Shown: positions 2,957 through 45,813 of the stretch, piece by piece
Position numbering within the stretch: the first letter of the stretch is position 1
Layout of the letters: each line of letters opens with the position of its first letter
From: Patescibacteria group bacterium
Lineage (GTDB): Bacteria > Patescibacteriota > Patescibacteriia > UBA9934
DNA length: 64,000 nt
Reading direction: 5' to 3'
Assembly: GCA_018062825.1 (NCBI GenBank)
Contig: JAGORL010000002.1
Span: 1,629 to 65,628, forward strand
Made by a program: the position numbers and the translations under genes
The notes under the pieces: model-generated
What the model saw: the letters and a program-made list of their open reading frames with translations, nothing else
The model's database searches: none
Told to the model about the DNA's origin: nothing

Positions 2957-3103
2957 AGGGGGAACAGGGTTTAGGGGCATATAGAAAGGGGTCCCAAAGC
3001 CTCCCCAAAGGCTCAGTCCGTGACCGGGCCATAGAAAACAAGATAAAAATCAAAAACTGACTTTTCTTTTGTTCTTATAAGTATATGATATGTTGGAATC
3101 TAT

Positions 3104-3277
3104 ATGAAAAAATGTATTAAATGCGGACATGCTGAGATGCACACATCAGAACCAATCAGAATTCAAATCAACAGTGAATCAAATCCTTCAAAATTCTTAG
3201 ATATCAATAGATGCAATACTGAAGACTGTGAATGCATTTTAACGCTACAAGAAAAAAGAGACCTCGAAATTGATTAG
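3104..3277 (+). CDS. small zinc-ribbon protein (57 aa), hypothetical
   Basis: MKKCIKCGHAEMHTSEPIRIQINSESNPSKFLDINRCNTEDCECILTLQEKRDLEID, found by manual translation; it is below the ORF-track length cutoff. Confidence 0.3.
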   Translation: MKKCIKCGHAEMHTSEPIRIQINSESNPSKFLDINRCNTEDCECILTLQEKRDLEID

Positions 3278-3307
3278 GAAAATTTACTAAAATCACAACT
3301 AATATAT

Positions 3308-3709
3308 ATGGGATTCTGGATGAACTTTAGAAAAAAAATGTTATGCGAAACATTTTTTTCATCCTACTGCTCAAGAAAGGCTCACTACCCGATGGAAGAC
3401 GAAAATCAATGGTTGAAAGCAGCTATTGAGGAAATATTAACAGATTTTGTTAATCATGATCTCAAAATGATGCCTGAGTTGCTAAATCAAAATGCAGAAT
3501 CAATTTTAAGTCGGATAAAAAACACAGACCCTTACCGACAGGCAATAATTGAACTCTGGAGTTCCTATAAATTTAGTAAACAAATAAGTAAAAATGACTT
3601 TAGTCAAATGTTTAATAACTTTTACGAAAGCGAAAAAGAAATCGAACCACATTACTCAAAGGCCTATATTAAGTATAAAAATAAATTCCCTAAACTGATT
3701 AACTCTTAA
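3308..3709 (+). CDS. hypothetical protein (AT-rich island)
   Basis: 133-aa ORF. The true start may be the internal Met (MEDENQ...). Confidence 0.4.
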   Translation: MGFWMNFRKKMLCETFFSSYCSRKAHYPMEDENQWLKAAIEEILTDFVNHDLKMMPELLNQNAESILSRIKNTDPYRQAIIELWSSYKFSKQISKNDFSQMFNNFYESEKEIEPHYSKAYIKYKNKFPKLINS

Positions 3710-13088: not shown

Positions 13089-13131
13089 ACAAAAAGAAGA
13101 CCCACCCTCGCCGTTTGGCAAAAGGTGGGTC
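13089..13131 (-). terminator. terminator of GC-rich cassette a1 (GACCCACC ... GGTGGGTC + UUCUUUUUG)
   Basis: Read directly. Confidence 0.6.
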
Positions 13132-13140
13132 GCGCGGTCA

Positions 13141-13704
13141 TCACCACGTGATGCCCACAGAAGCACCCTGGTACTCGGTACCCGTATCCACCCGCCAGCG
13201 AGGGATATCATCCCCCTCAGCGAAGGGCGAGAAGTCGATCCCGCGCTCAGTGCCACCCTGGAGTCCGAAAGCCAGATGCATCGGGAACACGACCACGGTC
13301 GTGACCACACGCTGCTGACCCGCAAACATCACCGGGCGACCAATGAGGTGAAACGGTGAGACACCGAGGTCGCTCGCGGCCACAACGAGCACGCGCGAGA
13401 ACTCCGGAAACGCCGCCGCTACGGCATTAACCGAAACTCCCTGAACGCTGTCCCGCTTCAAGTAGCGCGGCACCTCCACATCCGCCCCCACTGAGCAGTG
13501 AGGACCCTTGAGACGCATGCGACGCTCGACAAACGACCGCCTCACAACGCTCAGAACCGACCACTGCGGCACGAGCACCTGGTTCAAGGGAACGAACAAC
13601 CCATCAGCCTCCTTGCCGAGACCGGCGTAGAGAAAACGACGTCCAAACTCCTGGTGCAGGAGCACGTGCCCGAACAAGAAACCTTCTTGACCATCGTCGC
13701 TCAT
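13141..13704 (-). CDS. hypothetical protein, GC-rich cassette a1
   Basis: Start at MSDDGQEGF preceded by CTTGGAGGTG. The strongly GC-rich segment yields spurious antisense ORFs. Confidence 0.5.
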   Translation of the reverse strand: MSDDGQEGFLFGHVLLHQEFGRRFLYAGLGKEADGLFVPLNQVLVPQWSVLSVVRRSFVERRMRLKGPHCSVGADVEVPRYLKRDSVQGVSVNAVAAAFPEFSRVLVVAASDLGVSPFHLIGRPVMFAGQQRVVTTVVVFPMHLAFGLQGGTERGIDFSPFAEGDDIPRWRVDTGTEYQGASVGITW

Positions 13705-13745
13705 CTCACCTCCAAGGCGACAAGGTAGCGTAACAAAAAACACAA
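13705..13745 (-). promoter_or_regulatory. conserved cassette leader, copy a1 (CGCTACCTTG ... CTTGGAGGTG-ATG)
   Basis: Shared with leaders at 14447-14510, 20870-20898 and 45758-45813. Confidence 0.45.
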
Positions 13746-13792
13746 CAAAAAGCAAACAAAAGACTCGCCGCCCCTTCCGCAGCCGCGGAAGG
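13745..13792 (-). terminator. terminator of cassette a2 (CCTTCCGC-GGCT-GCGGAAGG + U-rich)
   Basis: 8-bp stem followed by a long T-rich run on the minus strand. Confidence 0.55.
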
Positions 13793-13810
13793 TAACGACG
13801 AGCCAGCGCC

Positions 13811-14446
13811 TCACCCGGACACGAACCGATCAACGACATCGGGTCCCTCCACGTGCCTCAGGAAGAGCGGATGAACCTGTTCGTTACGGTCGTACTGGGG
13901 CACCACAACGAACTTGCGAGTACCATCACCGTTTGCGCCCCACAGGTACAAACCGGCCTTGCGCTCCCCGTGATCACGTTCCACCTTGCGGTCGAACACG
14001 ATCGCGAAGCACTTGAGCACGTAGCGAACGCTGTGCGGATCACGCTCGAGGCGCACCAGCCGACCAAGTGACGAGAGCGGAAAGCGCGGCTCGCGCAGTA
14101 CGCCACGCAGAAGGTCGCGTCCCGTCGGCGTTGCCGCATCAAGGAAGCGTCGCCAGATATGCACGTAGGCTTCGTCATCACGCGGCAAAGCCACGATCTC
14201 GAAGCTCTGGAAAGGCTGCTCCACGCCGTTGATGGCAAAGTAGCTGCCACCGGCATCGATGAAACACTCCCGATCCGGATAGCCCGGCAAGGCTGCCGCC
14301 CGAAAGCGATCAATGCCATGCTCGGTACCCACCCGGGTGACAAAGGCCGCCACCACAGAACCACTCTCTTCCCCACGACCGTACACGACGATCGCGCTTG
14401 CTGCCGGGGCCTCACGGCCACGAGAGCTAGGCCGACTTTGACCCAT
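13811..14446 (-). CDS. hypothetical protein, GC-rich cassette a2
   Basis: Start at MGQSRPSS with RBS GGAGGGG. The alternative-frame ORF 13858-14421 has an implausible composition. Confidence 0.5.
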   Translation of the reverse strand: MGQSRPSSRGREAPAASAIVVYGRGEESGSVVAAFVTRVGTEHGIDRFRAAALPGYPDRECFIDAGGSYFAINGVEQPFQSFEIVALPRDDEAYVHIWRRFLDAATPTGRDLLRGVLREPRFPLSSLGRLVRLERDPHSVRYVLKCFAIVFDRKVERDHGERKAGLYLWGANGDGTRKFVVVPQYDRNEQVHPLFLRHVEGPDVVDRFVSG

Positions 14447-14510
14447 GACCCCTCCAGTCCTCGGGATGAATTCCCGCGCCAAGGTTAGATGAAAAATGAC
14501 AAAAACGCAA
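14447..14510 (-). promoter_or_regulatory. conserved cassette leader, copy a2 (TTGCGT-17-TAACCT; CTAACCTTGGC; ACTGGAGGGG-ATG)
   Basis: Aligned by eye with three other copies. Confidence 0.45.
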
Positions 14511-15578: not shown

Positions 15579-15803
15579 TTATTCATCAGCCTCACCGGCA
15601 CCACAATCTTCACAGTCGTCACAACAACGATCAGTATCAGACTCTTCATCGCAACAATCACAACTTTCACCACAGCTCACCTTTCCGCCATTCCCCCCTT
15701 CCGCCATTCCGCCTTTCTTCACAGGCATAGCGCAAACGCCATCATGACAGGTGGCCTTTGGTGCTTCTTTCTTTGCCCCAAACACTGACGAAAGCCATGA
15801 CAT
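15579..15803 (-). CDS. Cys/Asp-rich microprotein (74 aa), hypothetical
   Basis: [74 protein letters not shown]. It lies 5 nt upstream of dnaJ. The middle part is encoded by a GGCGGAAGGG-type repeat. Confidence 0.45.
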
Positions 15804-18320: not shown

Positions 18321-18872
18321 TTATACTTTCGCAGGAAACTGATAGATAAATTTTAACAACATCTCAACAAAGTGAATGATTTTTTCAGCCTCGTCCCTAG
18401 TGCGACTTTGGATTTCATGATTAGCGTCATTGCCAAGCTGTCTTATTGCATCGACCCAGTCACGACTACCTGGTGGAGTATAGTGATTCTCTACAAGCCA
18501 ATTCACATATTCCGCGAATTTCAGACCTTTATCTGCACCTTGCGACACAGCGACATTCATTAATACTTTGCGCATACACATAACTGAAGCCGTATAAGCA
18601 CTTACAGAAAAAGACTTTCTTCCTTCCGTGTATATTCCAAGAACATCAGTCGGCAAATCGCTTACATCATTGCCATACGCAACTCCTGGATATTGAACCC
18701 CTTCGCCAGAAAAATAAGTCGGATGATTACAAGCGTGACAAATGTATATACTCGCATGTGGGCTAGATGCATGAGAGCCTACAAAATATCCAACATTTGA
18801 TGCCAAAGGATTATGACAATACCCACAGGTATATGATCGAGACTTAATTATATGAGTCTGTATCCAAGCCAT
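18321..18872 (-). CDS. zinc-ribbon + DUF4145-domain protein
   Basis: N-terminal CGYC ... CHAC ribbon. The C-terminus ([18 protein letters not shown] ... [15 protein letters not shown] ... [17 protein letters not shown]) matches the DUF4145 pattern (IR..GN.AAH ... LL..LY). Confidence 0.7.
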
Positions 18873-18873
18873 A

Positions 18874-19422
18874 TTACTCGCTTACCACAACCTTCGACGG
18901 ACGAATGACTAAGTCACCAAGTTTCCAACCACGCACAATCTCTTCAAGAACAACGCCAGGCTCTTTACCGTCCTCCTTACGAGAACTCGCTGACTCATGA
19001 AGCATCGGATCAAACTTGGCGCCAACGGCCACAATCGGTTCAACGCCAAGGACCTTTAAGGCTTCAGCAAACTGACGATCAATGTGCCCGATCCCTTGAA
19101 ACCACACATCAAACTTTTTCTTAGCGTCGTCTGTGAGTCCACTAACGTCCGGCACATGCTGCAAAACGTAGCCAAAGTTATCAACGACCGGGAGCAATTC
19201 TTCAGCAAGTGAGAGTTGCGCGCGACGACGATCCTCGACCCGACGCTCTGACATCTGCTTTTGAATATTCTCGTAATCAGCAAGCGCACGCTTCCAGCCA
19301 GCTAAGTATTCATCACACTTTGCTTGCAAGTCAGAGGCAGGCGCCGCGGATGCCGTTTCTGGCGCTCCTTCTGGAGTAGGTTGATCATTATTTACTGTCG
19401 TGTCCTTTTGTTCTTCATCCAT
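18874..19422 (-). CDS. grpE: nucleotide exchange factor GrpE
   Basis: Conserved GrpE core ([12 protein letters not shown] ... [18 protein letters not shown]). Confidence 0.9.
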
Positions 19423-20152
19423 AGGTTAGAGCTTGAGGTTCAATAAGACGTTTGGCGTGCATGAGAAGCGCGGCGTTATGCGCATAATCCATACGCATCG
19501 GCCCAACAATGCCCATCACACCTCTACCACCGTCTGGCAACGTATGCCCGATAACAACCGAGGCGAGCGCCGGACCAAACGGACTGTCACTCCCTAAAAT
19601 GATCTGCACATCCTCACGCGTAGTTTTAGCCATGCCGCGCAAGGTGGCATCAAGCTTCTCAAGTGAGTCAGCGAGCGCGAGGCGCGCCTGTACCTCTTGA
19701 AAGTCCGGCTTACGCAAAAGGTTAGCGATGCCGACCGTTTCACTCCACGGCCGAGTAGTAGCAAGCATAACTGCGTCTCCGGAGGCCTGCGCAAGCGCAA
19801 GACCGATTTCATGCATGCGCTCTTCAGAACTTTTCTGCCGAGGCTGAATTCTGAGCGTCACCCGGATCTGCACCGCCGGACGTGCCGGCTTAGTAGCTGT
19901 ACCGGTTGCGGGACCTACATAGGAAGCAATGTAATGCTTGTAGGCCTTCTCAGTTGGCACACGGCCAGCCGAGGTATGTGGCTGCGCAATGTACCCAGCC
20001 TCCTCAAGGGCTGCCATGTCATTACGAACCGTGGCGGGCGAGCAATCAAGATCAGCCCGTTCACAGACCTGTTTGGAACTCACAGGCTCGGCGGTACGCA
20101 CGTACTCGTCCACGATGCACTTGAGAATTCGTTCTCGTCTGGAATCCATCAT
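19415..20152 (-). CDS. hrcA: heat-inducible transcription repressor HrcA
   Basis: N-terminal wHTH ([21 protein letters not shown]) with an HrcA C-terminal domain; operon context. Confidence 0.9.
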
Positions 20153-20161
20153 AAAAGGATA

Positions 20162-20188
20162 TTAGCACTCGGTATTATAGACTGCTAA
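20162..20188. promoter_or_regulatory. CIRCE operator (TTAGCACTC-N9-GACTGCTAA)
   Basis: One mismatch to the consensus inverted repeat; directly upstream of hrcA. Confidence 0.8.
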
Positions 20189-20201
20189 ATCGGAACGTCA
20201 A
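20174..20201 (-). promoter_or_regulatory. sigma70-like promoter of hrcA operon (TTGACG-17-TATAAT), -10 inside CIRCE spacer
   Basis: Read on the minus strand. Confidence 0.6.
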
Positions 20202-20204
20202 GTG

Positions 20205-20244
20205 TATAAAAAGAGGCCCCGTGAAGCGCGTGCTTCACAGGGCC
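20205..20244 (-). terminator. terminator of GC-rich cassette b (13-bp stem with 1 mismatch + UCUUUUUAU)
   Basis: GGCCCTGTGAAGC-ACGC-GCTTCACGGGGCC on the minus strand. Confidence 0.6.
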
Positions 20245-20251
20245 TTGAGGG

Positions 20252-20869
20252 CTACCGCACAACCGAGACCGTGAGAGCGATCTCGTTGTTGCAGGGGCGT
20301 GGCATCCCCAGACCGACGTAGCTACTAGCGTCGAAGGAGATCGCCGCCCCGCCTTCGAAGATGAAGAGTGCTCGTTGCCCAGCCTCGATCTCGCCAGAAG
20401 TCGGTGGGCACTCCAGGCTCCTGGCCTCGTAGTCGAACCACTCCAGAGTCGCGGTTCGACCACGCAATCGGATGCGCGGGCCGTCGATCTGAGTGACGAG
20501 GACACGTTGATCGTCGTGCGCTACGAAGCGCGGGATAACCATGTGCGCCCCTCGGCGCATGATGTAGGTGATGCCGATGCCGTGGAAGTCCTCCGGCTTC
20601 GGCAGGTGAATCACCCGCTGCTTGGGAACCGCGAGCTCGAGCACGAGCTCGTACTGCACACCGGAAGACGTACGCCTTCCTTGCCGCTGTCGGCGACGCT
20701 GAGAACGAACCTCCTTGCCCTGGGCAGACTCTCCGTCGATCACCCGGACACGGAAGCTGATGATCCGGTGGATCATCGCCAGTTGATCATAGGCCCCGCA
20801 CCGTGCGTAAGGCCCCTCCTTGCTGTTGCTCGACCCTGTGGAATCACGGGTCGCTGGCATGCCACACAT
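20252..20869 (-). CDS. hypothetical protein, GC-rich cassette b
   Basis: Start MCGMPATRD preceded by ACTGGAGGG; no recognisable domain. Confidence 0.5.
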   Translation of the reverse strand: MCGMPATRDSTGSSNSKEGPYARCGAYDQLAMIHRIISFRVRVIDGESAQGKEVRSQRRRQRQGRRTSSGVQYELVLELAVPKQRVIHLPKPEDFHGIGITYIMRRGAHMVIPRFVAHDDQRVLVTQIDGPRIRLRGRTATLEWFDYEARSLECPPTSGEIEAGQRALFIFEGGAAISFDASSYVGLGMPRPCNNEIALTVSVVR

Positions 20870-20898
20870 TGGCCCTCCAGTAAGGCCAAGGTTAGCGG
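20870..20898 (-). promoter_or_regulatory. conserved cassette leader, copy b (TTGCGC-17-TAACCT; CGCTAACCTTGGCC; ACTGGAGGG-ATG)
   Basis: Aligned by eye with the other copies. Confidence 0.45.
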
Positions 20899-20931
20899 AA
20901 AAACAAAAAGAGCGCAAGACCGCGCTCTTTC
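20898..20931 (-). terminator. terminator of PP2C gene (AAAGAGCGC-GGTCTT-GCGCTCTTT + UUGUUUUU)
   Basis: Read directly. Confidence 0.75.
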
Positions 20932-20935
20932 TAAC

Positions 20936-22768
20936 TTAACTCGCTTTTTGAAAGGCTTGAACCGCAGCTTTTTTAGCAGCCGCGACATCAGTTACTGTAG
21001 ATTCTTGAGCCTTTTGGCGCTGTAATTCAACAATATACGCCATCTGCTCTCTATTAAGGCTTGGGTGCGGCTTAGACCAGCGCCCTTTAGGGTCAAGTGT
21101 GCCGGAATCCACTAAATGCTGCCGCCACTGCTCCCAAGTATCAGCCTCATCTTCAGCATTGTTCTTTTCACCAACTTCCACCTCATTACCAAGCGCCTCA
21201 ATATTGGCCTCATCGAGCTCTTCAAGCTCCTCAGGTAAAGCTGAGGCGCGCATACGCTCAACGGACACCTGACCAACCGGAACGTCACGTCTTAGCGCCT
21301 CTTGCAGCTTACTTGCGGCCAACGAAGAATCCCCCGCCCGAGAACGGCGCTTACGAACCGCTGCTCCAACAACAGCGGACGTATCATCCGGCTTACTACG
21401 ATCATTTTTCTCATCCTTTTCAATACTCACCGCCAGTTCTTGAAGTAGGCTCTCAGCAAGAAGTGGATTGCCTTCGCTCTTCTGCATCACTTCCTCCATC
21501 TGCTTGCGAGTAGCGTTGTCATGAACGCCATCTGAAGTAATAACAAACCGCTGGCCAGGCTCAAGATCGACCCACAAAATATCAGAATTCTTTGGATTCT
21601 CTGGATCAAATTTTAAATCTTCTATTTTAGATGTACCAGAACCTATCGCTTCAGTAATAACGTTTCGCTTACCGACAAATTCTTTCTGCCGCTCAGTGAG
21701 TGCATTGTAATCAGTGTACTGATCAAGCGCGTCTAAATCTTCTGGGGTAAGTTTCGTTGGTAATTCAATAGCTCTGTTTAAAACCTTAACCAAACGATCC
21801 GCCTTATCAGCGTCAATCTCGCGTTTGGCAGCATCCGTAAGAAAACGGACATCTGACTCTGACAGGCCCCGTGGATCAGCTAAGAATGACGATAGAGCAG
21901 ACTGAATTTCAGCCGAAGAAACACTGTCACCCTTACGACCCGCCGCCATCTGCTTTAACTTCTCAAGCCCACTGACTACATCTAGATCAAGCGGCACATC
22001 ACGAAATGTCTCATTCTCTGCCCGCAACCGATTATCGTCCTCGGTCAGCGTCACAAGTGACCCATCTTCATTTTCAAGATAGACACGACTGTCACCTATG
22101 CTCGTGTAATACAAACGCATCTTGCCGTCAGGCATTTCAACGAGCTTGGCAAGTGAAAGCGTAGTACATGCCCCACGATACTCTGGATTAACTTTTTGAA
22201 TTTTCTCAACTGCTTCATTGGAGTCTCGAACACTCTCCTGCATGGCCTTAGCCACGGCTTCATTAATCCAATCTTCATCCCCCTCAGAAAGCTGGGACGC
22301 CTTCTCAAGAACAGCATCAAGCTTCTCACCCATGCGATCAGCAACCACGCGACTCGTAATCTCAGAGGCAATGGCGCCGTGACCCGAGGACACGCCATCC
22401 ATCACCGCATACAAACCACGTTCTGGATCGTTGATCTTGCGATCATCACAACGGTTCTTGGGCTTCTCTAAAGTTTTCTCACCAATAACGCGGCGTTCAA
22501 AACCCTTCACTTCATCAACACCAACGTTCACAATGTCACGAGCCGCAACCTCTGGCGGTAGCACAGCCTCAATATCTTTAGCAGCTTGCTCCCACTCCCC
22601 CTCCTTCCAAAGCTTCTCCATCTTGGCCTTTTGCGCAACAACCCAATCCTTCGGTTTCTCGACCGGCTTTACCTGCTCAACCTTAACAGTCGGCTGAGGT
22701 GCCTGCTCTTTTTTTGGCGCTCCGTAGCCCATCATGCCACGAGCTCGTTCCATCATTGATCCGATCAT
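20936..22768 (-). CDS. PP2C-family Ser/Thr phosphatase domain protein with long N- and C-terminal extensions
   Basis: GLYAVMDGVSSGHG, GACTTLSLA, IGDSRVYL, ITSDGVHD. Confidence 0.75.
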   Translation of the reverse strand: MIGSMMERARGMMGYGAPKKEQAPQPTVKVEQVKPVEKPKDWVVAQKAKMEKLWKEGEWEQAAKDIEAVLPPEVAARDIVNVGVDEVKGFERRVIGEKTLEKPKNRCDDRKINDPERGLYAVMDGVSSGHGAIASEITSRVVADRMGEKLDAVLEKASQLSEGDEDWINEAVAKAMQESVRDSNEAVEKIQKVNPEYRGACTTLSLAKLVEMPDGKMRLYYTSIGDSRVYLENEDGSLVTLTEDDNRLRAENETFRDVPLDLDVVSGLEKLKQMAAGRKGDSVSSAEIQSALSSFLADPRGLSESDVRFLTDAAKREIDADKADRLVKVLNRAIELPTKLTPEDLDALDQYTDYNALTERQKEFVGKRNVITEAIGSGTSKIEDLKFDPENPKNSDILWVDLEPGQRFVITSDGVHDNATRKQMEEVMQKSEGNPLLAESLLQELAVSIEKDEKNDRSKPDDTSAVVGAAVRKRRSRAGDSSLAASKLQEALRRDVPVGQVSVERMRASALPEELEELDEANIEALGNEVEVGEKNNAEDEADTWEQWRQHLVDSGTLDPKGRWSKPHPSLNREQMAYIVELQRQKAQESTVTDVAAAKKAAVQAFQKAS

Positions 22769-43657: not shown

Positions 43658-44527
43658 CTATTGATTGAACACGACATTAGCCTCGTACTCCTGCCCTGAC
43701 TCATTAGCTTCGATTGTAAGACGGGCTCGATCCCCAGTTGGCAGCAAGAAATCAATACCTGAAGCCGTGGTTACGATGTTAGAAAACAGCGGTGTCGTCA
43801 TCTGGCCGTCAACATCAATACATGGCACCCGTTTTGCAATCGGAAGTGCAAAAACGAGTGGCACCACCTGCGTCGAGATCGATGAACTTAATACAACTCC
43901 TGACACCTCCGCTGTCGCGCCTTGCTCTTGTGAACATTCCTCCGTCACATATAAATCAACCGTATCGTGCGCAGGATAAAGAATCGCGTTGAATTTTATC
44001 TTCTCTAAGCCCCAACCCCTCTCAGAACGCATCCTTAGGACATCGAATCCCGATTGATCAAATGCAATTTCAAGATATTCGCCCACCTCTGGAGCACCAT
44101 TCCACATTGAAAATGTATGCGAACCATCTTCATTTTTTACAAAACCAAAAACTTTTCTAATCGGACTCAATGCAACAGTATAAACAACCTCCTCTTCACC
44201 GTTTTGAATATTTTTACGATTAAGTTGATATAAATATCCCCCATCATTCTCAACTACCTCGTCAGAAAAGAAAAATTCACCAATACTATATTCGAGACCT
44301 CGAATCTCATTCTCAACATTCAAGATAGCGTTCTCTTGCTTAAGAATTTCGTTTTCAATGCCGACGGCATGCATCCTCTCGCCCATAGCGCCCAAGCTCT
44401 CACGAAGATAGATAGTTACAAAAATCAAAACAAGTACCGCAGCAGCTGTCGACAAAAAAGCTAATAACAAAGCAACAGACACCCCGAGCAAACCGTTGCT
44501 CTTCTTTACCACTTTTTTGTTCGCCAT
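43658..44527 (-). CDS. hypothetical membrane-anchored protein with coiled-coil segment
   Basis: 289-aa ORF. Confidence 0.45.
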   Translation of the reverse strand: MANKKVVKKSNGLLGVSVALLLAFLSTAAAVLVLIFVTIYLRESLGAMGERMHAVGIENEILKQENAILNVENEIRGLEYSIGEFFFSDEVVENDGGYLYQLNRKNIQNGEEEVVYTVALSPIRKVFGFVKNEDGSHTFSMWNGAPEVGEYLEIAFDQSGFDVLRMRSERGWGLEKIKFNAILYPAHDTVDLYVTEECSQEQGATAEVSGVVLSSSISTQVVPLVFALPIAKRVPCIDVDGQMTTPLFSNIVTTASGIDFLLPTGDRARLTIEANESGQEYEANVVFNQ

Positions 44528-44542
44528 ATTATCAACGAGTAT

Positions 44543-44582
44543 AACAGAAAACGACCCCCGCTCCAGGTGAGCTAGGGGTCGT
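44543..44582 (-). terminator. terminator of GC-rich cassette c (ACGACCCC ... GGGGTCGT + UUUUCUGUU)
   Basis: Read directly. Confidence 0.6.
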
Positions 44583-44590
44583 GAGTGGGT

Positions 44591-45757
44591 TTACGCCGCC
44601 GCGATGATCGGCTTCACCGCGTTGTAGACCGCCTTGGCGTTCAGACCAGGCCGAGCGAGCTCGCCCTGGAGAACCATGAACTGACCGCGCATGCCAGGCA
44701 GAACCGGGCGCTCGAAGTCGTCGTCCGTGAGGTCGGTCGAACCAAGCGCGTAGGCGATGTCGCCGGCAGTCGCGATCGCGTTGCGGCGATCGATGTCAGA
44801 GAGCGGCTGATCACGCTCCTTCGCGACCGAGGCGACGGTGAGCACTTCGTCGAGACTCTCGCGGATGGCGAGGATCTCGAGCGAACGACGCACCTTGTCG
44901 ACGTGCACGAACGCCGTGATGAGATCACCGGTCTTGATCGCCTCGATGGCGATCTTGAGGTCGATCACGTCACGCACGAACGAGCGGCGGCCGTCCGGAG
45001 CGATCACGATCGCGTTCAGGATGGCGACCTGCGCCTCGAACTGCTGCACGTAGTAGCTCTGGGTCTTGAGCTTCTCCGGCTCACGGCGCCAGCGCAGGAA
45101 CGCCTGCGTGACCCGCATGAGCTCCGAGCGTACTCCATCGAGCTGATCGCGGATGGCGAGCAGCACACGGGCGCGGACGTCGATGAACGCCCCGATCCGC
45201 CGCATGTTGCCCTTGCGAGTCGCGAGACGGTGCTCCGCCGACCAGATGATCGGCAGCCGAGACATCGGGTTCACCCGCTTGATCGAATCCTTCGGAAGCG
45301 CCGCCCGACCGGTCTGGTCGCGCGCGTACATCTTCGATTCGTCACGGAAGTGCGGGTGCTTGGCGTAGAAGTCCTCCATCTGCCGCCGCACCATGTTCTG
45401 TTCGTCGATCGGCAGGCGCTGCAGATCGACGAACACCGAGTACCCCCACGCGAGGGTGCCGAGCCACGCCTTGATCTGCGTCTCCTCGTCCTCGTAGCTG
45501 TTCGGCACGTGCCGGGCAACCGCGCGGATCGCCGAGTACAGACCATCGTTGTACGTGGAGAAGGCGCCGCTCTCCTGGTTGTAGAGGAGCACAGCACCCT
45601 TCTTGATCTCCCCCGCCGCCACCGCGGCAATGAGCACACGCCCCGGCAGGGGCTCCTTCACGGCGAGGGCCACATCGCCCTCCTTGACCGTGATCTTTCG
45701 CTCGACGATCTGCCCGTTTCCGGGGATTCGACCGTCAGTACCAGTACGCACGTCCAT
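44591..45757 (-). CDS. hypothetical protein (388 aa, largely helical), GC-rich cassette c
   Basis: Minus-strand frame has a protein-like composition. The plus-strand 395-aa ORF is an R/D/L/H-rich antisense artefact. Confidence 0.5.
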   Translation of the reverse strand: MDVRTGTDGRIPGNGQIVERKITVKEGDVALAVKEPLPGRVLIAAVAAGEIKKGAVLLYNQESGAFSTYNDGLYSAIRAVARHVPNSYEDEETQIKAWLGTLAWGYSVFVDLQRLPIDEQNMVRRQMEDFYAKHPHFRDESKMYARDQTGRAALPKDSIKRVNPMSRLPIIWSAEHRLATRKGNMRRIGAFIDVRARVLLAIRDQLDGVRSELMRVTQAFLRWRREPEKLKTQSYYVQQFEAQVAILNAIVIAPDGRRSFVRDVIDLKIAIEAIKTGDLITAFVHVDKVRRSLEILAIRESLDEVLTVASVAKERDQPLSDIDRRNAIATAGDIAYALGSTDLTDDDFERPVLPGMRGQFMVLQGELARPGLNAKAVYNAVKPIIAAA

Positions 45758-45813
45758 GCCACCTCCAAGTGATTGGCGGCTGAAAGGTTAGCGAAATTTT
45801 AGAACTTTGTCAA
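45758..45813 (-). promoter_or_regulatory. conserved cassette leader, copy c (TTGACA-17-TAACCT; TCGCTAACCTTTC; CACTTGGAGGTGGC-ATG)
   Basis: Aligned by eye with the other copies. Confidence 0.45.

What the first reader, a model, noticed from the sequence alone, without database searches (positions are those of the whole stretch)
20205..20931. GC-rich cassette b between hrcA and the PP2C gene (same leader family)
A single unknown ORF starts at MCGMPATRD (about 205 aa). Its RBS ACTGGAGGG lies 4 nt upstream, and its leader reads CCGCTAACCTTGGCC. It has its own terminator (20205-20244) and is wedged between the PP2C terminator and the CIRCE-controlled hrcA promoter. Composition is visibly GC-rich relative to its neighbours. 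It is the third member of the leader family described at 13089-14510.
Basis: partly seen in the sequence, partly recalled or inferred. Interest (0 to 1): 0.7.

Follow-up and report, generated by a model that had tools for sequence, protein, structure and literature searches.

The report
GC-rich orphan gene with own promoter
A real but function-unknown 205-residue gene sits as a self-contained unit (own promoter, ribosome site, terminator) between a PP2C phosphatase gene and hrcA in a Patescibacteria genome; it is one of four unrelated, unusually GC-rich orphan genes here that share a promoter design, and it is an old, vertically inherited resident, not a fresh insertion.

Summary
On the minus strand, 20252-20869 encodes a 205-aa protein (MCGMPATRD...). 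It has GGAGG-N4-ATG, a TTGCGC-N17-TAACCT promoter inside the CCGCTAACCTTGGCC leader, and a strong terminator (20214-20245). It lies between the PP2C terminator and the CIRCE/hrcA promoter. GC is 63% (GC3 0.75) against 49% for the window.

The leader family is real. TTG-N20-TAACCT occurs three times in the window, each time in front of a GC-rich orphan ORF (a2, b and a fourth unit, c, at 44591-45757).

The implied recent insertion is not supported. The gene is at the same site in all four related genomes found. It has diverged in step with its neighbours (dS 1.28 against 1.34 for hrcA). It is under purifying selection (omega about 0.27-0.29) and has no repeats, integrase or donor homologues.

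It is an orphan: 5.8 billion proteins hold only its own cluster and one 60% orthologue, and no family library or usable fold matches.

The four units share a GC-rich codon usage unlike the host's, and this persists across divergence that should have erased it. That is unexplained. Function is unknown; my guess is a basic, soluble, possibly nucleic-acid-binding accessory protein.

The parts
20904..20933 (-). Intrinsic terminator of the upstream PP2C gene. Its 3' arm and T-run overlap the -35 region of unit b.
   Evidence: Terminator scan. Fold dG -17.1, z -4.25. Conserved in L001.
20889..20917 (-). Sigma-70-type promoter of unit b: TTGCGC (20912-20917), 17-nt T-rich spacer, TAACCT (20889-20894).
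   Evidence: One of only three TTG-N20-TAACCT matches in the window, all upstream of GC-rich orphan ORFs. 0 differences over the 66-nt intergenic region in strains L017 and L019. Nearly identical in L001, where neutral sites are about 50% different. Promoter function is inferred, not shown.
20884..20898 (-). It contains the -10 hexamer.
   Evidence: Read directly from the sequence. Aligned with a2, c and a1.
20873..20878 (-). Shine-Dalgarno GGAGGG, giving GGAGG-N4-ATG.
   Evidence: Sequence. The same GGAGG-N4-ATG spacing occurs in all four units.
20252..20869 (-). Coding sequence of unit b: 205 aa, 22.9 kDa, pI 9.6, Arg 12.2% / Lys 2.0%, no hydrophobic segment. NCBI locus KBC55_02285, annotated there as only 135 aa.
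   Evidence: ORF. Omega 0.29 against L001 and 0.25-0.27 against close strains. In-frame indels. Antisense ORF broken in L001. Protein properties. Annotation.
20205..20245 (-). Intrinsic terminator of unit b: 14-bp stem at 20214-20245 and T-run at 20205-20213.
   Evidence: dG -28.1, z -5.83. Stem kept in L001 through compensatory changes.
20162..20201 (-). Context, not part of the unit: hrcA promoter TTGACG-N16-TATAAT with the window's only CIRCE operator (20162-20188).
13811..14510 (-). Family member a2: promoter TTGCGT-N17-TAACCT (14482-14510), GGAGG-N4-ATG, 211-aa orphan ORF (13811-14446). Its terminator is about 13762-13804, just downstream.
   Evidence: GC3 0.68.
13099..13770 (-). Family member a1: degenerate leader (CGCTACCTTG...CTTGGAGGTG-N3-ATG), 187-aa orphan ORF (13141-13704), terminator about 13099-13131.
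   Evidence: GC3 0.71.
44551..45813 (-).
   Evidence: GC 0.65, GC3 0.86.

Best explanation
**What it is.** Unit b is a genuine, vertically inherited, lineage-restricted protein-coding gene in a Patescibacteria MAG. It is built as an insulated monocistronic transcription unit. The parts, in order on the minus strand, are:
- the PP2C terminator;
- a sigma-70-type promoter, TTGCGC-N17-TAACCT;
- a 5' UTR of about 15-20 nt;
- GGAGG-N4-ATG;
- 205 codons;
- a strong intrinsic terminator;
- then the separate, CIRCE-controlled hrcA promoter.

**How it most likely works.** It should be transcribed on its own, independently of heat-shock (HrcA) control. Its product is a basic (pI 9.6), soluble, mainly beta protein. 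That protein has a conserved 23-residue N-terminal peptide and a conserved Arg-rich patch (RRRQRxGR).

**The set it belongs to.** At least four unrelated orphan genes in this window (a1, a2, b, c) carry the same expression module and the same GC-rich codon usage. This suggests common regulation and a common compositional history: ancient entry from, or long residence in, a very GC-rich background, with the GC-rich state since held by some constraint.

**Shown:**
- the anatomy of the unit;
- its coding status;
- vertical co-divergence with its neighbours;
- relaxed purifying selection;
- leader similarity above chance;
- orphan status.

**Inferred:**
- promoter activity and co-regulation;
- origin;
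- the role of the protein. My weakly held guess (about 15%) is nucleic-acid binding, as an accessory or partner-interaction function.
For: **Anatomy.**

**Coding status.**
- GC1/2/3 are 0.64/0.49/0.75.
- Against L001, dN/dS is 0.29, with in-frame indels and pN 0.07 over the first 25 codons.
- Against strains 2-3% divergent, pN/pS is 0.25-0.27, compared with 0.02-0.07 for PP2C, hrcA and grpE.
- The sense ORF is intact and the antisense ORF broken in L001.

**Vertical inheritance.**
- The order PP2C-b-hrcA-grpE is the same in L001, L002-4, L017/18 and L019.
- dS is 1.28 for b, against 1.34 for hrcA and 1.42 for grpE.
- Nucleotide divergence is uniform at 2.2-2.9% across b and its neighbours in close strains.
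- The terminator stem is kept through compensatory changes.

**Functional leader.**
- 0 of 66 intergenic differences in L017 and L019.
- Near-identity in L001, where 4-fold sites are only 39-50% identical.

**Family.**
- TTG-N20-TAACCT occurs 3 times, only at a2, b and c.
- Upstream-region alignment ranks are 1, 6, 14 and 24 of 1431.
- GGAGG-N4-ATG is present in all four units.
- All four end in strong terminators.
- RSCU correlates at r 0.65-0.85 among the four, against 0.02-0.36 with host genes.
- Arg greatly exceeds Lys in all four.

**Persistent GC excess.**
- b has 4-fold GC of 0.68 and 0.65 in the two lineages, against 0.37-0.53 for neighbours.
- c has GC3 of 0.86, 0.85 and 0.92 in three genomes whose host genes have 0.45, 0.40 and 0.70.
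- Polarised recent changes in b are balanced: W>S 4-5 against S>W 4-5.

**Orphan status.**
Against: - There are no expression data, so promoter use and co-regulation are inferred from sequence conservation only.
- TAACCT matches the -10 consensus at only 3 of 6 positions.
- Leader similarity could partly reflect convergent selection for a terminator T-run, a promoter and a strong SD, rather than common descent.
- The lineage is very thinly sampled. The hrcA cluster has 4 members, and the next hrcA relatives are 35-40% identical. So 'orphan' and 'present in all relatives' rest on few genomes, and no genome with an empty site has been seen.
- The polarised substitution counts are tiny and partly shared between the two comparisons.
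Confidence: 0.6

Rival explanations
1. Recent horizontally acquired or mobile cassette. A promoter-ORF-terminator module from a GC-rich donor was inserted between PP2C and hrcA.
For: - GC, GC3 and Arg/Lys are strongly atypical.
- The unit has autonomous expression signals.
- The leader is shared with other GC-rich units.
- There are no homologues in the host's wider clade.
Against: - The gene is present at the identical site in every related genome found, including one with dS of about 1.3.
- Its divergence equals that of its neighbours at both depths.
- There are no target-site duplications, terminal inverted repeats or adjacent integrase.
- No donor, phage, plasmid or viral homologue was found.
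- In the same operon, the truly strain-variable gene (DUF4145, 18321-18872) is AT-rich and promoterless, the opposite pattern.
Confidence: 0.07
2. Ancient horizontal acquisition followed by purely neutral, still incomplete amelioration. Nothing maintains the GC excess.
For: - Codon usage is a hybrid. Leu and Ala codons look like a high-GC genome, while CGT and GGT are shifted towards host preferences compared with c in L008.
- GC3 of b and c is slightly lower in the lower-GC lineages.
Against: - With dS of about 1.3 between lineages, b's GC3 of 0.70-0.75 would need an ancestral GC3 of about 1.0. This is my calculation.
- c has been syntenic since a split at which YceG is only 49% identical, yet it keeps GC3 0.86 in a genome at 0.45. 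Its dS is 2-3 times lower than that of its neighbours, which suggests synonymous constraint.
- Recent W>S and S>W changes in b are balanced, where about 3:1 in favour of S>W would be expected (small numbers).
Confidence: 0.2
3. Not a gene. A GC-rich spacer or structured RNA that happens to carry a long ORF, as GC-rich DNA often does.
For: - GC-rich DNA produces long spurious ORFs. Long antisense ORFs are present at b and c.
- No protein family matches.
- NCBI annotated only a 135-aa version.
Against: - Omega is 0.25-0.29 at two divergence depths.
- Indels are multiples of three.
- The ORF is intact in four genomes while the antisense ORF breaks.
- The GC1>GC2<GC3 pattern fits this frame.
- A strong SD sits at fixed spacing from the ATG.
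- There is no Rfam hit in the window other than tRNAs.
Confidence: 0.03
4. The leader family is only generic convergence. Any strong promoter placed after a terminator, followed by a strong SD, would look alike, so nothing links the four units.
For: - The short motifs alone are not enriched in the window.
- 5' UTR hairpins are no better than shuffled sequences.
- The c orthologue in the distant relative L008 uses TTGACA-N17-TAGGAT, not TAACCT.
Against: - The host's own promoters seen here use TATAAT-like -10 boxes (hrcA).
- TAACCT with correct spacing occurs only at the GC-rich units.
- a2 and b share 30 of 31 aligned bases around it plus ACTGGAGGG. a1 and c share CTTGGAGGTG.
- The units also share a codon usage.
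Confidence: 0.15

Closest known systems
Phage 'morons' (autonomous promoter-ORF-terminator units with atypical composition inserted between phage genes; from my own knowledge of Hendrix-type definitions)
   Same: A single ORF flanked by its own sigma-70-type promoter and a factor-independent terminator. It is wedged between two unrelated genes, and its composition differs from its neighbours.
   Different: - It lies between chromosomal housekeeping operons, not in a prophage.
- It has no PHROG hit.
- It is fixed at the site in all relatives and has co-diverged with them.
- It is GC-rich rather than AT-rich.
Bacterial ORFan or taxonomically restricted genes
   Same: It has no homologues outside a narrow clade, evolves fast (omega about 0.27) and has atypical composition.
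   Different: - ORFans are described as shorter and AT-richer than native genes (abstract of PMC3514957). These four are markedly GC-richer.
- They also share one promoter/RBS design and one codon usage.
Integron gene cassettes
   Same: Compact single-ORF units with a hairpin at the 3' end, two of them in tandem (a2-a1).
   Different: - Each unit has its own promoter.
- The 3' hairpins are perfect G+C stems followed by T-runs, i.e. terminators, with no GTTRRRY core.
- The units are scattered at three loci, not arrayed next to an intI/attI.
Genomic islets acquired by HGT
   Same: Compositional outliers in GC, GC3, codon usage and Arg/Lys.
   Different: - No presence/absence polymorphism.
- No tRNA, repeat or integrase association.
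- No identifiable donor.
- The composition has not relaxed over a long residence.

Membership tests
Any curated protein family (Pfam, NCBIfam, PHROGs, PADLOC, PDB sequences) | Significant profile or sequence match | tested here: not met
   No hit for b at E up to 1 in any of the four libraries, and none in PDB at E up to 10. An exhaustive profile search of 1.84 billion representatives found only the orthologue and one spurious tandem-repeat protein.
Integron gene cassette | attC recombination site (imperfect palindrome with GTTRRRY core) at the 3' end | tested here: not met
   The 3' element is a 14-bp G+C stem plus a T-run, i.e. an intrinsic terminator. Reading the sequence shows no GTTRRRY core at either boundary.
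Integron gene cassette | Promoterless ORF expressed from Pc, next to intI/attI | tested here: not met
   The unit has its own conserved promoter. Its neighbours are PP2C and HrcA. The rest of the window was not scanned for intI.
Phage moron | Own promoter and terminator flanking one ORF, with composition unlike the neighbours | tested here: met
   Promoter activity is inferred.
Phage moron | Located within a (pro)phage genome and present or absent among related genomes | tested here: not met
   The neighbours are cysS, dnaJ, dnaK, grpE, hrcA and PP2C. There are no PHROG, phage or viral matches. The unit is present in all four related genomes.
Recently acquired genomic islet / mobile element | Insertion polymorphism, flanking repeats, mobility gene | tested here: not met
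   The site is the same in all relatives. There are no flanking direct or inverted repeats. Divergence equals that of the neighbours.
Recently acquired genomic islet / mobile element | Atypical base composition and codon usage | tested here: met
   GC 0.63 against 0.49; GC3 0.75 against 0.44-0.54; RSCU r 0.02 with host genes.
HrcA/CIRCE heat-shock regulon | CIRCE operator in the promoter region | tested here: not met
   The window's only CIRCE element (1 mismatch) is at 20162-20188, downstream of b's terminator, in the hrcA promoter.
Promoter-defined set of GC-rich orphan units in this genome (a1, a2, b, c) | TTGnnn-N17-TAACCT (or a near variant), GGAGG-N4-ATG, GC3 of at least 0.68, own terminator | tested here: met
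   b meets all four criteria. Whether the set is co-regulated is not testable with these tools.

The most novel reading that the evidence does not exclude
The four units may be a dedicated, co-regulated set of lineage-specific effector genes of this ultra-small, probably partner-dependent bacterium. Their shared promoter module would mark a regulon. Their GC-rich codon usage would be actively maintained by selection rather than being a fading trace of transfer. Possible reasons are mRNA stability, escape from an AT-targeting silencer or nuclease, or matching to a GC-rich partner organism. If so, this would be a gene-specific compositional equilibrium inside a 49% GC genome.
Probability: 0.12. 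Interest if true: 0.7.

Novelty: new variant of a known kind. Interest (0 to 1): 0.4.

Why it matters
Orphan genes make up much of Patescibacteria/CPR genomes and are usually impossible to group. Here four unrelated orphans are tied together by a shared promoter/RBS design and a shared codon usage. That gives a sequence handle for finding the rest of the set genome-wide and for testing co-regulation.

They are GC-richer than the genome, and stay so over divergence that saturates synonymous sites. This runs against the usual rule that orphan or foreign genes are AT-rich and ameliorate. If confirmed with more genomes, it would be a clean natural case for asking what holds gene-specific base composition in bacteria.

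For annotation, the work corrects the start of KBC55_02285 from 135 aa to 205 aa. It also shows that the HrcA/CIRCE unit is insulated from this gene.

Tried and rejected
**Homology searches**
- Family searches for all four proteins (Pfam, NCBIfam, PADLOC, PHROGs) gave nothing.
- A PDB sequence search gave nothing useful.
- Word-indexed searches of 5.8 billion proteins found only each protein's own cluster and close orthologues.
  - The concatenated a2+a1 query missed even a2 itself, so it says nothing about a2.
- An exhaustive profile search found the orthologue plus one artefact, a perfect tandem-repeat protein.

**Structure**
- AlphaFold of c gave pLDDT 55, with a confident C-terminal helical bundle that matches only generic four-helix bundles. 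There is no viral fold match. The afdb50 library was unavailable.

**Relations among the four proteins**
- Pairwise blastp and hhalign found none.

**Search for more relatives**
- Scans of genome and metagenome collections with HrcA found only relatives 31-40% identical, with a different gene order. No genome with an empty site could be examined.
- About 8.7 kb beyond the window end (L013) holds no further unit.

**Mobile or viral origin**
- Viral-contig scans and phage and plasmid tblastn gave no match.
- There are no flanking repeats.

**Other ideas tested**
- An SD-sequestering 5' UTR hairpin common to the units: the folds are no better than shuffled sequences.
- A PilZ-like RxxxR...DxSxxG reading of the Arg patch was rejected. 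The second motif is not conserved in the orthologue, and Pfam gives no PilZ hit.
- An Ntn-hydrolase reading of the N-terminal MCG was rejected, because no hydrophobic strand follows it.
- Literature searches found no report of this promoter or of GC-rich orphan sets in Patescibacteria.
Full report
**Source and setting**

The window (49.1% GC) comes from a 'Patescibacteria group bacterium' MAG with locus tags KBC55_, on a contig of about 197.7 kb. The region around the finding is a minus-strand run of housekeeping genes: cysS, dnaJ, a small Cys-rich ORF, a 127-aa ORF, dnaK, a DUF4145 gene, grpE, hrcA and, further upstream, a PP2C-domain gene.

Yes, in every particular.

- The minus strand 20252-20869 encodes 205 aa starting MCGMPATRD.
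- GGAGGG sits at 20873-20878, giving GGAGG-N4-ATG.
- The quoted leader CCGCTAACCTTGGCC is at 20884-20898.
- The unit's own terminator is a 14-bp stem (20214-20245) followed by a T-run, with dG -28.1 kcal/mol and z -5.8.
- The PP2C terminator (20904-20933) lies just upstream.
- The hrcA promoter TTGACG-N16-TATAAT lies just downstream, with the window's only CIRCE element at 20162-20188.
- GC is 0.626 and GC3 0.75. Neighbouring genes have GC 0.48-0.56 and GC3 0.44-0.54.

**2. Is it a gene?**

Yes.

- GC by codon position is 0.64/0.49/0.75, the pattern expected of a coding frame in GC-rich DNA.
- A 60%-identical orthologue (P0002) lies at the same place in a related genome, L001.
- Against that orthologue, dN/dS is 0.29. 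Alignment gaps are multiples of three. The first 25 codons have pN 0.07 and pS 0.45, so translation starts at the ATG at 20869, not at the internal start NCBI used for its 135-aa call.
- Two strains only 2-3% divergent (L017/L018 and L019) give pN/pS 0.25-0.27, against 0.02-0.07 for PP2C, hrcA and grpE.
- The long antisense ORF (20375-21025, +) is broken in L001 while the sense ORF is intact.

**3. Is it an insertion?**

Not a recent one.

- All four related genomes found carry it between PP2C and hrcA.
- Its synonymous divergence from L001 is dS 1.28. That matches hrcA (1.34) and grpE (1.42).
- In close strains, nucleotide divergence is uniform across PP2C, b, hrcA and grpE at 2.2-2.9%.
- The terminator stem differs between the window and L001 by compensatory changes, as expected for a hairpin evolving in place.
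- No direct or inverted repeats flank the unit.
- There are no homologues in viral contigs, phage records or plasmids.
- An internal control is instructive. The DUF4145 gene between grpE and dnaK (18321-18872) is absent from L001 and from the 2.3%-divergent strain L017. That truly variable gene is AT-rich (GC 0.40, GC3 0.31) and has no promoter or terminator of its own. This is the opposite of b.

**4. Is the leader family real?**

Yes, and it has a fourth member.

- A composition scan shows one more island of the same kind, unit c (44591-45757, minus strand, 388 aa, GC 0.65, GC3 0.86).
- The pattern TTG-N20-TAACCT, that is a -35 TTGnnn, a 17-nt spacer and a -10 TAACCT, occurs exactly three times on both strands of the window. 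The three sites are a2, b and c. The expected count is 0.35, and no shuffle out of 100 reaches 3.
- Among 1431 pairs of 70-nt upstream regions, a2-b is the best pair (0/5000 shuffles). a1-b ranks 6th, b-c 14th and a1-c 24th.
- All four units have GGAGG-N4-ATG. a2 and b share ACTGGAGGG, and a1 and c share CTTGGAGGTG.
- All four end in strong terminators.
- The b leader has 0 of 66 differences in the close strains. It is almost unchanged in L001, where 4-fold sites are only 39-50% identical. It is therefore under constraint.
- The short motif on its own is not enriched in the window. The signal comes from motif, spacing and position together.
- The 5' UTR hairpins that can be drawn over the SD are no better than shuffled sequences.
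- The host's own hrcA promoter has a canonical TATAAT.

**5. What do the units encode?**

- The four proteins are unrelated to one another and to any library family.
- b has only its own cluster and the 60% orthologue in 5.8 billion proteins. An exhaustive profile search of 1.84 billion representatives adds only a tandem-repeat artefact.
- c has an 80% orthologue and a 43% orthologue, both syntenic between yceG and uvrD.
- a1 has only near-identical copies. The search says nothing about a2, because the concatenated query missed even a2 itself. The exact-cluster look-up lists only three a2 members.
- The lineage is thinly sampled. The hrcA cluster has four members, and the next relatives found are 31-40% identical. 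So a protein evolving as fast as b would be invisible in the next sampled relatives. Its orphan status therefore does not by itself show foreign or de novo origin.
- b is 22.9 kDa, pI 9.6, Arg 12.2% and Lys 2.0%, with no hydrophobic segment.
- Between orthologues, the conserved parts are the first 23 residues, a basic patch (RRRQRxGR) and a core at about residues 73-180.
- c has a confident C-terminal helical bundle with only generic matches.

**6. The composition puzzle**

- The four units share a codon usage. RSCU correlates at r 0.65-0.85 among them, at 0.02-0.36 with host genes of the window, and at 0.49-0.74 with host genes of the GC-richer relative L008. A-ending codons make up 2-9%.
- The excess persists over time. 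b has 4-fold GC of 0.68 and 0.65 in two lineages whose 4-fold sites are only 39% identical. Neighbouring genes have 0.37-0.53.
- c has GC3 of 0.86, 0.85 and 0.92 in three genomes whose ordinary genes have about 0.45, 0.40 and 0.70. Its dS (0.46) is 2-3 times lower than that of its neighbours.
- Simple neutral relaxation from a foreign state would need an ancestral GC3 near 1.0 for b. It cannot explain c, which has been at its locus since a split at which YceG is only 49% identical. This is my calculation.
- Polarised recent changes in b are balanced (W>S 4-5, S>W 4-5), but the counts are too small to lean on.
- Codon usage does show some drift towards host preferences, with CGT and GGT raised relative to c in L008.
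- I therefore favour an old GC-rich origin plus some force holding GC up. That force could be selection on the mRNA or on codons, or biased gene conversion (discussed for bacteria in 10.1101/011023). This point remains unexplained.
- It is unusual because orphan genes are normally reported as AT-richer than native genes (abstract of PMC3514957).

**7. Mechanism, with the level of support for each part**

- Shown: an insulated promoter-RBS-ORF-terminator unit, coding, vertically inherited, weakly constrained, and a member of a four-unit set defined by promoter design and codon usage.
- Inferred (moderate): it is transcribed on its own from TTGCGC-N17-TAACCT, independently of HrcA/CIRCE, and the four units are co-regulated.
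- Inferred (weak): the product is a cytoplasmic, basic, mainly beta protein that may bind nucleic acid and serves an accessory or partner-interaction role.

**8. Comparison with known kinds**

- In architecture it is closest to a phage moron. It fails the defining context for that kind, since it is not in a prophage and shows no presence/absence polymorphism.
- It is not an integron cassette. It has its own promoter, no attC site and no arrayed context.
- It is not a recent genomic islet.
- It is best described as a taxonomically restricted gene of an unusual, GC-rich, promoter-sharing sort.

**Verdict**

The 'cassette/insertion' interpretation is only partly supported. The finding is of moderate interest, mainly for the promoter-linked set of orphans and their persistent GC excess.

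Noticed in passing
window 44551-45813 (-): A fourth GC-rich orphan unit, c (388 aa, GC 0.65, GC3 0.86; NCBI KBC55_02390). It has TTGACA-N17-TAACCT, GGAGG-N4-ATG and its own terminator, and lies between yceG and a 289-aa ORF. Orthologues at 80% and 43% identity are syntenic. Its dS is 2-3 times lower than that of its neighbours.
   Followed up: yes
window 18321-18872 (-): A DUF4145 gene sits between grpE and dnaK. It is AT-rich (GC 0.40, GC3 0.31), starts 1 nt after the grpE stop and has no promoter or terminator of its own. It is absent from L001 and from the 2.3%-divergent strain L017, so it is a genuinely strain-variable insertion in the heat-shock operon.
   Followed up: partly
window 15579-15803 (-): A 74-aa ORF between the 127-aa ORF and dnaJ has a C-terminal half made almost entirely of Cys, Asp and Glu ([25 protein letters not shown]). 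It is conserved as a 79-aa ORF in L001 and has no Pfam hit. It may be a metal-binding peptide within the chaperone operon.
   Followed up: partly
window 20252-20869 and 19415-20152: There are two annotation issues in the public record. b is called as 135 aa (KBC55_02285), although the RBS and N-terminal conservation support 205 aa. The short (245-aa) HrcA is named 'DeoR family transcriptional regulator'.
   Followed up: yes
L008 4704-5924 (relative with about 57% GC): Directly upstream of the c orthologue lies another very GC-rich ORF (406 aa, GC3 0.91 against 0.66-0.74 for host genes). It has no counterpart in the window. The yceG-uvrD interval seems to collect such genes.
   Followed up: partly
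window 20936-22768 (-): The PP2C-domain protein is 610 aa here but 549 aa in L001. A block of about 70 residues (roughly 257-329) has no counterpart there, and the C-terminal half is only about 65% identical. This gene is much more variable than the chaperone genes beside it.
   Followed up: no
window 3001-3600: This is the most AT-rich stretch of the window (GC 0.33). I did not examine it.
   Followed up: no
window 43658-44527 (-): A 289-aa ORF with an N-terminal membrane segment lies just downstream of unit c. It is AT-rich (GC 0.43) and has no Pfam hit. The distant relative L008 has no equivalent between c and uvrD.
   Followed up: no
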